The translations under genes were made by a program, and so were the position numbers. Positions 22,047 to 25,505 of a stretch of 64,000 bases of DNA are shown here, in pieces. Position 1 is the first letter of the stretch. The number at the start of each line of letters is the position of its first letter. The stretch lies in assembly GCF_009914755.1 (NCBI RefSeq), contig NC_060929.1. One strand, written 5' to 3'. The DNA is from the human T2T-CHM13v2.0 reference genome, Homo sapiens. The notes beneath the pieces are model-generated. The model had not been told where the DNA came from, did no database searches, and saw only the letters and a list, made by a program, of their open reading frames with translations.

Positions 22047-22389
<343 letters not shown>

Positions 22390-23535
22390 TCACTATTAGT
22401 GCTAAGAAAACATTAGGTGATAACTGCCAAATGTGTACACAGACAAGTGATATAAAAATTTAAAACAGAGGAACACACTTAGCTTAGCTTTAGGAGATTC
22501 TGGCATCTCATAGGAAAAGGGATCAAATTATAAATGATATACGTCTGGAAATTCAGTAAAAATAGTAGGTTGTGCACAGTGTTTTTGCCATAGTAGTGAA
22601 GGCACGGATTTCTTTTGTTTGGTGTTCTTGGGGACAAGATGACAAATGTAAAAGTCCCTTAATTAGTGAGAAATCACCAGCCTTCTTTGGATCTACCCCA
22701 CTTAGGGAGAGGAGATGGTAAAATGACGAATAAAGGGAAAAGTGACTGAGGAAAGAAAGGTGAGAGGAAGCTGCAGAGGCAGGAGGTGGAGGGAAAGTGC
22801 AGATCTGCTGGCGCGGGGTCTGGGGTCTCAGGTCTCGGCCGCCTGGGGAGCCACCTGCCTGGAGAGGCAGGTTGCGATGGCAGCGCTGGGCTACAGACCC
22901 CGCCTTATCTGCGGGGAGGAGAGGACGGGTGGAGTCACTTGCCGCATTGCCACAGCCCCCTCCTCCTAGTTTTAAGAAGAACCGAAGCATTGTTTCTGCT
23001 TTAACAGCAGTCACTCATTCCTTATAACTGAAAACAACGACGGTGGGCTCTGGCACCTCTTTCGGCTCCTTGTACTGTTGGAAAAAAAAGTCTGGGAAAA
23101 CGTGTACCTTGTTTTTTAAATGGGGATGATTGTGATAGCCAACAGGCATATGATAGTTTTATTTCCTTGCTTTTTCCCCCCAGTACATTGACGATTCTTT
23201 GTAGCTACTTGAACTGATTTTAAAGACATTTCGAAAGAACTATAAGTCAAGCTATAAAGTATTTGGCTTTTGCGGGAATAAAACACGCCTTTTGAGTCAA
23301 ACACAGGTCTTTCAGGCACTAAAAACAAGTAGGAAATGAGAAAAAAAATTAAAACCAGAAGACTTCAGGAAAGTGACAAATTGGAAAGCATTCTAGAAGA
23401 CTCATAGGACGACTTTATGTGAAAGAAGCACTCTAGGAGCTTTAAAAGCTTATGGGCAATTTATATTATAAAAGGATTTTAGGCTCAAAAGTTTTGGGGG
23501 AAGGCACAGAAAAAACAGTGCCATATTCTTAAATT

Positions 23536-23733
23536 GGCGGGGCGAGCAAAGGTCGTGGAGAAGACCCCGGGAAGCTGCTGGAGCCGGCAGAGGAGGAATC
23601 CCAGGTTTTGCGCGGAACTGGCCACTGTAAGTGGTTCAATGTGCGCATGGGATTTGGATTCATCTCCATGATAAACCGAGAGGGAAGCGCCTTGGATATT
23701 CCAGTCGATGTATTTGTACACCAATTCCTGTGA
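23536..23733 (+). pseudogene. LIN28B-derived coding segment (N-terminus and first half of the cold-shock domain), truncated
   Basis: Translates to GGASKGRGEDPGKLLEPAEEESQVLRGTGHCKWFNVRMGFGFISMINREGSALDIPVDVFVHQ then FL*. About 4 of 63 residues differ from LIN28B as I recall it. In-frame TAA at 23530-23532 immediately upstream. Confidence 0.92.
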
Positions 23734-23833
23734 TGTCACCAAATCCCCAAAAAGAAACACATGCCTAGGTGCTGTACTTTGTCTCTCTTTAGACATGTTG
23801 ATAAATGCTGTGAGATTCTGCTGTTTGAGGATG

Positions 23834-24105
23834 AGACAGGATCTCGCTCTGCTGTCCAGGCCGAAGTACAGTGTTGTGGTCATAGCTTGCTGTAACCTCA
23901 AGCTCATGAGCTCAAGTGATCTTCCCACCTCAGCCTCTCATGTAGCTAGGACTACAGGTGTACACTACCATGCCTGGCTAATTTTTTTCTTTTATTATTT
24001 TTTTTTTTTTTGGTAGAGACAGGGTCCCAGGCTGGCTTTGAACTGCTGGCCTCAAGTGATCTTCCTTCTTCCACCTCCCAAAGTGCTGGCCATAACACCT
24101 GGTCT
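23834..24105 (-). mobile_element. Antisense AluJ lacking its poly(T) tail, inside the retrocopy
   Basis: Begins abruptly at agacaggatctcgctctg with no T-run before it. Confidence 0.85.
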
Positions 24106-24918
24106 TTCTGAACATTTTCAATTGTATATTTTTATTTTACAAAGCCAGAGATATAAATAATATTCAAGGCATCCAAGAAAAAAAAATTTAAAACAGAAAA
24201 AGTTATTTTTCTCTCCTCCTAAGAGATTGAGTGAATGATCTTAAAGGGCTGGTAAAAATTGAGAAGGGTGGAGGGAAGTGTGGGGCGGGGGAAACATTTC
24301 AGGCAGAATTCTGTTTAGATGAGACCCCACACGCAAGTTGGGAAAGGTCCAAGCATATGGAGACAACAGAATCAATGTTACTAGAGCAGTTAACAGGGAA
24401 ACCAGGGTCGGATTTGAGTTTCCTCAATGGGAAGATAGGAGGGCTCCAGTGGAAAATCTCCAAGGTCATGTCAAACTCTAACTAGAATGTTACTAACTAG
24501 AATGTCTAACTAGAATGTCCAACTGTAATCTAATGTAGAATATCTAAACTGAATCTACTGTAACTCTAAAAATTGTTAAGGGTGATATCAACCAGTATTT
24601 AGGATTAGGAAGTATCTTTAGGGTTCCAGTCCTGGAGAGAGAATATGTTCATATCCAGGCCTTTGAGAAACTGACAAGATGAAAAGTATCAGTTTATAAC
24701 GTCATTATTTGAAGATAATTCATAAAAGAAACATTAAATCCACTAAAAATGGGAATATCATTTATTATTAAATAATGGAAAAATTTTATAGGGACAATCA
24801 TATTGCAAAGAGAAACTAAAGATTATTTTTTAAAAATCAATCTTACACTTAAAAATTTGTTTATAATAACAATTATGTCCTAATTCCTACAAGAAACAAA
24901 AATAGAATTAAGGATTGA

Positions 24919-25420
<502 letters not shown>

Positions 25421-25505
25421 GCCATCATCCTTTTACAAGGTTTGCAAATTTATGGTGTAATATATTTGGGTTCTATTTACATTACATATTCTGCTTGACA
25501 TTGAC

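What the first reader, a model, noticed from the sequence alone, without database searches (positions are those of the whole stretch)
22454..24197. TSD-bounded retrocopy of a non-canonical LIN28B transcript upstream of CCNG1
Seen: an identical 16-bp repeat aaaaatttaaaacaga at 22454-22469 and 24182-24197, an A-tail merging into the right copy, and a variant poly(A) signal TATAAA about 20 nt before the tail. Inside lies 188 nt (23537-23724) encoding the LIN28B N-terminus and cold-shock RNP motifs (GHCKWFNVRMGFGFI...DVFVHQ). Known: TSD plus A-tail at a T/AAAA site is the signature of L1-mediated target-primed reverse transcription. As I recall, the 188 nt match LIN28B exon 2 end to end. Inference: the template was not the standard mRNA, since canonical exon 1 (ATGGCCGAAG) and exons 3-4 (zinc knuckles) are absent. 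The insert would be a fossil of an alternative germline or embryonic LIN28B isoform. The ORF track misses it.
Basis: partly seen in the sequence, partly recalled or inferred. Interest (0 to 1): 0.9.

Follow-up and report, generated by a model that had tools for sequence, protein, structure and literature searches.

The report
Retrocopy of a non-coding LIN28B isoform
This is an old, dead, L1-made copy on chromosome 5 of a spliced non-coding transcript from the LIN28B locus on chromosome 6, an ordinary kind of pseudogene that happens to preserve an unusual isoform.

Summary
An exact 16-bp direct repeat sits at 22454-22469 and 24182-24197, the only two copies in the window (0.01 expected).

The 1,712 bp between the repeats map colinearly, on the same strand, to four blocks within 30 kb of the LIN28B locus on chr6. 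All three junctions fall on GT...AG sites at the donor locus.

The four blocks are:
- an upstream exon of about 1.05 kb that ends 2.8 kb 5' of the canonical ATG exon
- canonical exon 2, end to end
- a 109/120-nt cassette exon in intron 2
- a terminal exon in intron 2 whose acceptor lies in an antisense Alu, with a CATAAA/TATAAA signal 19-20 nt before its end

Canonical exon 1 and exons 3-4 are absent. The template could not encode LIN28B, because stops lie two codons before and two codons after exon 2.

Substitution divergence is an even 2.2% (38 of 1,696). That suggests an insertion roughly 9-16 Myr ago.

One caveat: there is no separate A-tail. Four of the nine A's are templated by chr6 and five belong to the repeat.

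This is an ordinary processed pseudogene, of modest interest as a fossil isoform. No primate empty-site check or gene-annotation check was possible.

The parts
22454..22469 (+). Left target-site duplication (16 bp)
   Evidence: It is an exact copy of 24182-24197. These are the only 2 matches in the window; 0.01 are expected by chance. It is preceded by T (22453), so the bottom strand reads TTTTT/AT, close to the L1 endonuclease preference TTTT/A (preference recalled; sequence).
22470..22475 (+). Six bases (GGAACA) of uncertain origin at the 5' junction
   Evidence: Only 3 of 6 match the chr6 bases just upstream of block 1 (TGACCG). They are either non-templated or cap-derived extra bases, or diverged source sequence.
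22476..23536 (+). Upstream alternative exon (E1alt) of the LIN28B locus, about 1.05 kb
   Evidence: It corresponds to C6:106129380-106130433 at 97.5% BLAST identity. With the six junction bases included, 23 of 1,060 positions are substituted. The chr6 3' edge is TTG|gtgagt. There is no AG before the chr6 5' edge. The exon starts at the 3' flank of a CpG island and has no other genomic copies.
23537..23724 (+). LIN28B canonical exon 2, complete (N-terminal region and first half of the cold-shock domain)
   Evidence: It corresponds to C6:106134115-106134302 with 5 of 188 differences, bounded by ctcag| and |gtaagc at chr6. It gives a partial Pfam CSD match, residues 27-62, E 2.5e-5, below the cut-off. 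The source matches PDB 4a4i LIN28B. There are 4 amino-acid changes and 1 silent change against the source.
23725..23833 (+). Cassette exon from LIN28B intron 2 (E2a)
   Evidence: It corresponds to C6:106136931-106137050, bounded by cttgtag| and ATG|gtatgt. Of 108 aligned positions, 2 are substituted. An 11-nt tandem duplication is present only in the source. It places a stop two codons after exon 2 (…HQFL*).
23834..24181 (+). Terminal exon from LIN28B intron 2 (E2b): antisense Alu (about 23832-24089), then about 90 nt of unique sequence with the poly(A) signal (24152-24157) and the end of homology
   Evidence: It corresponds to C6:106158835-106159185, with acceptor tattttag| at the Alu's T-tract. 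Of 340 aligned positions, 8 are substituted. The Alu is identified by 44 of 49 genome matches, confined to query 1363-1628 at 66-85% identity, and by a sub-threshold Metazoa_SRP match on the minus strand at 23831-23978, E 1.3e-8. The source hexamer is CATAAA and the retrocopy hexamer TATAAA, 19-20 nt before the end.
24182..24197 (+). Right target-site duplication (16 bp)
   Evidence: It begins at the very base where chr6 homology ends.

Best explanation
Window 22470-24181 is a processed (L1-mediated, target-primed reverse-transcribed) retrocopy of a spliced, polyadenylated, non-protein-coding transcript of the LIN28B locus on chr6.

The template ran sense to LIN28B. It started at, or was truncated within, an upstream exon that begins at the 3' edge of a CpG island and ends 2.8 kb 5' of the canonical ATG exon. 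It skipped canonical exon 1 and spliced into exon 2. It then used a cassette exon and an Alu-exonised terminal exon inside the 68-kb intron 2, ending at an intronic poly(A) site.

The cDNA was inserted at a TTTTT/AT nick on chr5, about 20 kb upstream of CCNG1, inside an intron of the antisense lncRNA LOC105377700. The insertion created a 16-bp target-site duplication.

The copy has drifted since then. It differs from the source at 2.2% of sites, including 4 amino-acid changes in the 62 exon-2 codons. It is most likely an inert pseudogene.

Shown here: the mapping, the splice junctions, the TSD, the signal hexamer, the lack of coding capacity and the divergence. Inferred: L1 as the agent, germline or early-embryo expression of the template, the date, and the absence of function.
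For: 1. Mapping. The genome search with the insert gave 49 matches: 1 to itself, 4 colinear plus-strand blocks at C6:106129380-106159185, and 44 Alu-only matches confined to query 1363-1628. BLAST against 70 kb of chr6 reproduced the 4 blocks. The other 32 of 36 HSPs were Alu-only.

2. Splicing. All 3 introns removed have GT at the donor and a polypyrimidine tract plus AG at the acceptor on the plus strand of chr6, so 6 of 6 sites are canonical.

3. Target-site duplication. The 16-bp exact repeat abuts the homology, 0 nt away on the right and 0-6 nt away on the left. The chance expectation is 0.01.

4. 3' end. The signal hexamer lies 19-20 nt upstream of the end of homology in both copies.

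5. Single event. Substitution divergence is even across blocks: 23/1060, 5/188, 2/108 and 8/340, total 38/1696 or 2.2%.

6. Source identity. The chr6 exon-2 translation matches PDB 4a4i LIN28B at 43 of 44 residues. The ATG exon, exon 3 and the zinc-knuckle exon were located on chr6 and are not in the insert.

7. Non-coding template. An in-frame TAA lies two codons before the exon-2 junction. Nine ATGs lie upstream, and a stop lies two codons after exon 2. At most 28 aa of the LIN28B frame stay open, counted from an internal Met.
Against: No unambiguous poly(A) tail remains. Of the 9 A's, 4 are templated by chr6 and 5 belong to the TSD.

Six bases at the 5' junction do not match the source well, only 3 of 6.

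No orthologous empty site could be examined. Both flanks are unique in this genome, with 1 of 1 matches being self in each search, so there is no paralogous empty site either.

I could not see any transcript annotation or expression data for chr6. The existence of the isoform today is therefore not shown.
Confidence: 0.93

Rival explanations
1. It is the same retrocopy, but the 5' end is a 5' truncation, as is common for L1-mediated copies. The template would then be a longer transcript, for example one starting further upstream such as at the known AluJb/LIN28B-TST start about 20 kb upstream, with block 1 only the 3' part of a longer exon or retained intron. This differs from the main reading only in where transcription began.
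For: L1-mediated copies are often 5'-truncated (established knowledge). The six junction bases match the source at only 3 of 6. A known upstream LIN28B start exists about 20 kb upstream (passages of PMC10296230; abstract and passages of PMC10363060).
Against: Block 1 begins at the 3' flank of a CpG island. CpG obs/exp is 0.93-0.96 at C6:106128750-106129500 and 0.1-0.4 around it. That is a plausible promoter position. The two leading G's could be cap-derived (recalled phenomenon). There is no AG before the chr6 edge, so it is not an internal exon boundary.
Confidence: 0.4
2. It is a chimera made by reverse-transcriptase template switching among separate RNAs or unspliced pre-mRNA pieces of the LIN28B locus. 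It would not be a copy of one spliced transcript.
For: L1 reverse transcriptase can switch templates (established knowledge). Nothing in the calls specifically favours this.
Against: All four blocks are colinear and on the same strand. They join exactly at 6 of 6 canonical splice sites, which random switching would not hit. Divergence is uniform across blocks.
Confidence: 0.02
3. It is a DNA-level duplication or a non-L1 capture of cDNA at a double-strand break, and the 16-bp repeat is coincidental.
For: No clear poly(A) tail remains.
Against: Precise intron loss excludes a DNA-level duplication. The repeat has a chance expectation of 0.01 in the whole window and sits exactly at the homology edges. 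The nick site TTTTT/AT fits the L1 endonuclease preference (preference recalled).
Confidence: 0.02
4. The retrocopy has been exapted, for example as an exon or regulator of the LOC105377700 lncRNA, as a CCNG1-upstream regulatory element, or as a source of a short cold-shock-like peptide.
For: It lies about 20 kb upstream of CCNG1, inside an intron of LOC105377700 (hub annotation). It carries a GC-rich stretch, 59-64% GC at 22700-22999.
Against: No RefSeq exon or functional element overlaps it (hub table). The LIN28B frame has stops on both sides and 4 of 5 exon-2 changes alter the amino acid. CpG-type losses are similar in the copy (5) and the source (4). The ORFs are short or Alu-derived.
Confidence: 0.05

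Closest known systems
L1-mediated processed pseudogenes (gene retrocopies)
   Same: Introns are lost at exact exon borders. The parent lies on another chromosome. A 16-bp TSD flanks the copy at an A/T-rich nick site. The 3' end follows a poly(A) signal. The reading frame has decayed. The hallmarks are described in PMC5470649 (passages read).
   Different: The template is a non-coding isoform that shares only one coding exon (62 codons) with the parent mRNA, so protein-based retrocopy screens would tend to miss it. The one held supplementary file of the retrocopy survey PMC7290577 has 0 occurrences of LIN28B. The poly(A) tail is essentially gone.
Processed pseudogenes as 'genomic fossils' of splice variants (Shemesh et al. 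2006, PNAS)
   Same: A retrocopy records an alternative exon combination of its parent gene.
   Different: I saw that paper only as an entry in a reference list, and it is not held. Its content is recalled. Whether it lists this locus is unknown.
AluJb-LIN28B / LIN28B-TST isoform
   Same: It is a non-canonical LIN28B transcript that starts upstream of the canonical promoter and splices past canonical exon 1. It is expressed in placenta and tumours (PMC10363060 abstract and passages; PMC10296230 passages).
   Different: That start is described as lying about 20 kb upstream, in an Alu, and as adding N-terminal residues. E1alt ends 2.8 kb upstream of the ATG exon, is unique non-Alu sequence and carries an in-frame stop. 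The retrocopy also ends inside intron 2.
LIN28B-short isoform (different 5' exons, lacks 70 N-terminal residues)
   Same: It also differs from the long form in its 5' exons (PMC10470845 passage).
   Different: The short form keeps the zinc-knuckle exons and the retrocopy has none. The primary papers were not held, so its exon structure could not be compared.
Antisense-Alu exonisation
   Same: The terminal exon's acceptor AG lies directly after the T-tract of an antisense Alu. This is the classical site of Alu exon birth (recalled).
   Different: Here the Alu supplies the acceptor of a terminal exon that ends at an intronic poly(A) site, not an internal cassette exon.

Membership tests
L1-mediated processed pseudogene / retrocopy | Contiguous copy of parental exons with introns removed at the exact exon borders | tested here: met
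   Four blocks are joined at three junctions, and all 6 donor-locus sites are GT/AG.
L1-mediated processed pseudogene / retrocopy | Target-site duplication flanking the insert | tested here: met
   A 16-bp exact repeat occurs twice in the window against 0.01 expected, at the homology edges.
L1-mediated processed pseudogene / retrocopy | Non-templated poly(A) tail at the 3' end | tested here: inconclusive
   The run is 9 A. Four are templated by chr6 AAAA and five are shared with the TSD. Decay or overlap with the TSD could explain this.
L1-mediated processed pseudogene / retrocopy | Insertion at an L1-endonuclease-type site (TTTT/A on the nicked strand) | tested here: met
   The top strand reads T|AAAAATTT at 22453/22454, so the bottom strand reads TTTTT/AT. 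The consensus is recalled.
L1-mediated processed pseudogene / retrocopy | 3' end at a genuine cleavage/polyadenylation site of the parent transcript | tested here: met
   CATAAA (source) or TATAAA (copy) lies 19-20 nt upstream of the end of homology. That these hexamers are used variants is recalled. No poly(A)-site data were seen.
L1-mediated processed pseudogene / retrocopy | Empty orthologous site in species that diverged earlier | not testable with these tools
   No primate genomes are held. The flanks have no paralogues in this genome.
Retrocopy of the canonical LIN28B mRNA | Contains canonical exon 1 (ATG) and exons 3-4 (rest of the cold-shock domain, zinc knuckles, 3' UTR) | tested here: not met
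   The ATG-exon motif is absent from the insert. Exons 3 and 4 were located on chr6 and lie outside the four blocks that account for the whole insert.
AluJb-LIN28B / LIN28B-TST isoform | First exon inside an AluJb about 20 kb upstream, in frame with exon 2 | tested here: not met
   E1alt begins 3.9 kb upstream of the ATG motif and has no Alu similarity. An in-frame TAA lies two codons before exon 2. A 5' truncation could hide an AluJb start.

The most novel reading that the evidence does not exclude
The retrocopy may be the only record of an unannotated, evolutionarily old (about 10 Myr or more), germline or early-embryo non-coding output of the LIN28B locus. That transcript would be driven from a CpG-island promoter about 4 kb upstream of the canonical start. 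It would be ended prematurely by a stop-carrying cassette exon and an Alu-exonised intronic poly(A) site. Such a transcript could work as a built-in attenuator, through premature termination or a 'poison exon', of this dosage-sensitive developmental timing gene.
Probability: 0.15. Interest if true: 0.5.

Novelty: new member of a known kind. Interest (0 to 1): 0.25.

Why it matters
In itself it matters little. It adds one processed pseudogene to the thousands in the human genome, in a gene desert upstream of CCNG1.

Its modest value is as a fossil. It shows that, at the time of insertion, heritable cells made a spliced, polyadenylated LIN28B-locus RNA from an upstream exon. That RNA terminated inside intron 2 through an Alu-derived exon. 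This gives precise junctions (E1alt-E2, E2-E2a, E2a-E2b) that can be looked for in long-read data from testis, embryonic stem cells and placenta, where LIN28B isoform choice is already of interest.

It also illustrates why protein-based retrocopy screens and ORF tracks miss copies of non-coding isoforms.

Tried and rejected
1. In-genome 'empty site'. I searched the left flank plus TSD and the TSD plus right flank against the whole genome. Each found only itself (1 of 1), so no paralogous unfilled site exists.

2. Earlier scan notes.

3. Literature for a named LIN28B pseudogene or retrocopy. Six phrasings gave 3 papers. The 2 I opened were plasmid-name artefacts. I did not open the third. 'LIN28B' plus 'processed pseudogene' gave 28 papers; none of the 15 listed has either term in its title, and I opened none of them. 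This covers only the held open-access library.

4. Retrocopy catalogues. The one held supplement file of PMC7290577 has 0 occurrences of LIN28B or of a recalled Ensembl gene id. Those supplements may list this copy.

5. Primary papers on the short isoform (PMC5835183) and on fossil isoforms (PMC1360558) are not held.

6. Segmental duplication, template-switch chimera and a coincidental repeat were considered and rejected, because of the exact splice-site junctions and the placement of the TSD.

7. ORFs in the insert include 145-aa and 140-aa minus-strand ORFs and a 102-aa plus-strand ORF that runs into the Alu. I took them as chance ORFs and did not test this further.

8. The Rfam hits to mir-1268 and mir-3135 are sub-threshold and lie in Alu sequence.

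Full report
**Observation**

AAAAATTTAAAACAGA occurs exactly twice in the 64-kb window, at 22454-22469 and 24182-24197, even when one mismatch is allowed. Dinucleotide-preserving shuffles expect 0.01 such pairs, and 0 of 100 shuffles reached two.

TATAAA lies at 24152-24157, 20 nt before an A-run that begins at 24178. In the correct frame, 23539-23733 reads GASKGRGEDPGKLLEPAEEESQVLRGTGHCKWFNVRMGFGFISMINREGSALDIPVDVFVHQFL*. It gives a partial, sub-threshold Pfam cold-shock-domain match (E 2.5e-5).

**Where the insert comes from**

The window's genome is held, and the window is G000:C5:163928001-163992000. A search with 22470-24181 returned 49 matches:
- 1 match to itself
- 4 matches on contig C6 that are colinear and on the plus strand
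- 44 matches confined to query 1363-1628 at 66-85% identity, which is an Alu

BLAST against 70 kb of C6 reproduced the four blocks. The other 32 of 36 HSPs were again Alu-only.

Using splice-consistent edges, the map is:

| Block | Window | chr6 (C6) |
|---|---|---|
| E1alt | 22476-23536 | 106129380-106130433 |
| Exon 2 | 23537-23724 | 106134115-106134302 |
| E2a | 23725-23833 | 106136931-106137050 |
| E2b | 23834-24181 | 106158835-106159185 |

The four blocks account for the whole insert except its first six bases.

**The source is LIN28B**

The chr6 translation of block 2 matches PDB 4a4i, 'protein lin-28 homolog B', at 43 of 44 aligned residues (E 6e-26). LIN28A chains score lower.

On chr6 I located three landmarks:
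- The ATG-exon motif followed by GT, at 106133266-75. It is the only hit with up to 1 mismatch on either strand in 70 kb.
- The exon that continues the cold-shock domain, at about 106202369.
- The double CCHC zinc-knuckle exon, at about 106254505.

Block 1 therefore ends 2.8 kb upstream of the canonical ATG exon. Blocks 3 and 4 lie inside the 68-kb intron 2. None of canonical exons 1, 3 or 4 is in the insert, and the ATG-exon motif has no hit within 22454-24197.

**It was spliced**

At the donor locus the removed segments are bounded as follows:
- TTG|gtgagt ... ttccttctcag|GCG
- CAA|gtaagc ... ctttcttgtag|TTC
- ATG|gtatgt ... tatttattttag|AGA

All 6 of 6 sites are canonical on the plus strand, so the template ran sense to LIN28B. 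The E1alt donor (G|gtgagt) looks stronger than the canonical exon-1 donor (AAG|gttaat).

The last acceptor lies directly after the T-tract of an antisense Alu. The Alu is shown by the 44 Alu-only genome matches and by a sub-threshold Metazoa_SRP match on the minus strand at 23831-23978 (E 1.3e-8). The Alu is shared by source and copy at about 97.6% substitution identity. It was therefore already part of the transcript and is not a later insertion.

**The ends**

At the 3' end, chr6 homology stops at ...CATCCAGAAAA|gctggc. This is 19 nt after CATAAA in the source and 20 nt after TATAAA in the copy. The right repeat copy starts at the next base.

Of the nine A's, four are templated by chr6 and five belong to the repeat, so no unambiguous tail is left. 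I still read this as a true poly(A) site, because of the hexamer distance and because the target's own A5 would have annealed to a tail.

The pre-insertion top strand reads T|AAAAATTT. The nicked bottom strand is therefore TTTTT/AT, close to the L1 endonuclease preference (recalled).

At the 5' end, six bases (GGAACA) match the source at only 3 of 6. No AG precedes the chr6 edge, so this edge is a start site or a truncation point and not an exon border. It sits at the 3' flank of a CpG island, where CpG obs/exp is 0.93-0.96 at C6:106128750-106129500. I rate a true start against a 5' truncation at about even odds.

**Coding capacity**

In the virtual source transcript (1,713 nt, joined in a script), the exon-2 frame has TAA two codons before the junction. 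Nine ATGs lie upstream in E1alt, and a stop lies two codons into E2a. At most a 28-aa peptide from an internal Met stays open in the LIN28B frame. The longest ORF, 121 aa, runs through the Alu. The template was therefore a non-coding isoform.

In the copy, exon 2 differs from the source at 5 of 188 bases. Four of these change the amino acid and one is silent. That fits relaxed constraint.

**Age**

Substitution counts per block are 23/1060, 5/188, 2/108 and 8/340. The total is 38/1696, or 2.2%. Without the six junction bases it is 35/1690, or 2.1%. There are also 9 indel events covering 39 nt. The even spread across blocks argues for one event.

Nine of the 38 differences are CpG-type transitions, 5 lost in the copy and 4 in the source. 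This gives no sign of special protection of the copy.

I compared this with recalled genome-wide divergences: human-chimpanzee about 1.2%, human-gorilla about 1.6%, human-orangutan about 3.1-3.4% and human-macaque about 6.5%. Against these, 2.1-2.2% (a Poisson range of roughly 1.4-2.9%) places the insertion around the stem of the African apes, possibly as early as the great-ape stem, about 9-16 Myr ago. Constraint on the source would make this an underestimate.

No primate genome was available, so this is a prediction and not a result.

**Comparison with known LIN28B isoforms**

The known upstream start, AluJb-LIN28B or LIN28B-TST, is described as lying about 20 kb upstream, within an Alu, and as adding N-terminal residues (PMC10296230 passages; PMC10363060 abstract and passages). 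E1alt begins 3.9 kb upstream of the ATG motif, is unique sequence and carries an in-frame stop. It is a different exon, although a 5' truncation could hide a more distant start.

The LIN28B-short isoform 'differs in 5' exons' and lacks 70 residues (PMC10470845 passage). Its exon structure could not be checked, because PMC5835183 is not held.

**Is it known?**

The hub's RefSeq table has no row for this interval. Text searches for a LIN28B pseudogene, retrogene or retrocopy found nothing real. One retrocopy catalogue supplement has no LIN28B entry, and another could not be opened.

I could not see GENCODE, RetroGenes or any chr6 transcript annotation, so prior annotation cannot be excluded.

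The idea that processed pseudogenes preserve alternative isoforms is established. I saw Shemesh et al. 2006 only in a reference list, and its content is recalled. The retrocopy hallmarks come from PMC5470649 (passages).

**Verdict**

This is a new member of a well-known kind. Its interest lies only in the isoform it fossilises.

Noticed in passing
L012:6931-7050 (C6:106136931-106137050); window 23725-23833: The cassette exon E2a puts a stop two codons after LIN28B exon 2 (…HQFL*). If it were included in otherwise full-length LIN28B mRNA, it would act as a poison exon, or it would force re-initiation at the exon-3 Met. That could relate to the reported N-terminally truncated short isoform. This is speculative.
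   Followed up: partly
L011:8750-9750 (C6:106128750-106129750): There is a CpG island (GC 0.46-0.54, CpG obs/exp up to 0.96) about 3.5-4.5 kb upstream of the canonical LIN28B ATG exon. The retrocopied upstream exon begins at its 3' flank. It may be a bidirectional promoter shared with the antisense lncRNA (recalled). This was not checked.
   Followed up: partly
L012:6931-7050 versus window 23781: The chr6 source carries an 11-nt tandem duplication (GTCTCTCTTTA twice) where the retrocopy has one unit. In the Alu part, the retrocopy lacks 12 nt that the source has and carries a longer T-tract.
   Followed up: no
window 24477-24518: Three tandem copies, 13-15 nt apart, of a 14-nt unit (TCTAACTAGAATGT) lie about 280 bp downstream of the insert (family D7).
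   Followed up: no
window 22176-22340 and 25097-25424: Ordinary Alu elements flank the region. One is on the plus strand with a 19-A tail ending at 22340, about 110 bp before the left TSD. One is antisense at about 25100-25420. They account for the sub-threshold Rfam SRP, mir-3135 and mir-1268 hits.
   Followed up: no
window 22553-22990 and 23485-23907, minus strand: ATG-to-stop ORFs of 145 aa and 140 aa lie antisense to the retrocopy. I took them as chance ORFs in GC-rich and exon-2 sequence, and I did not search them against protein databases.
   Followed up: no
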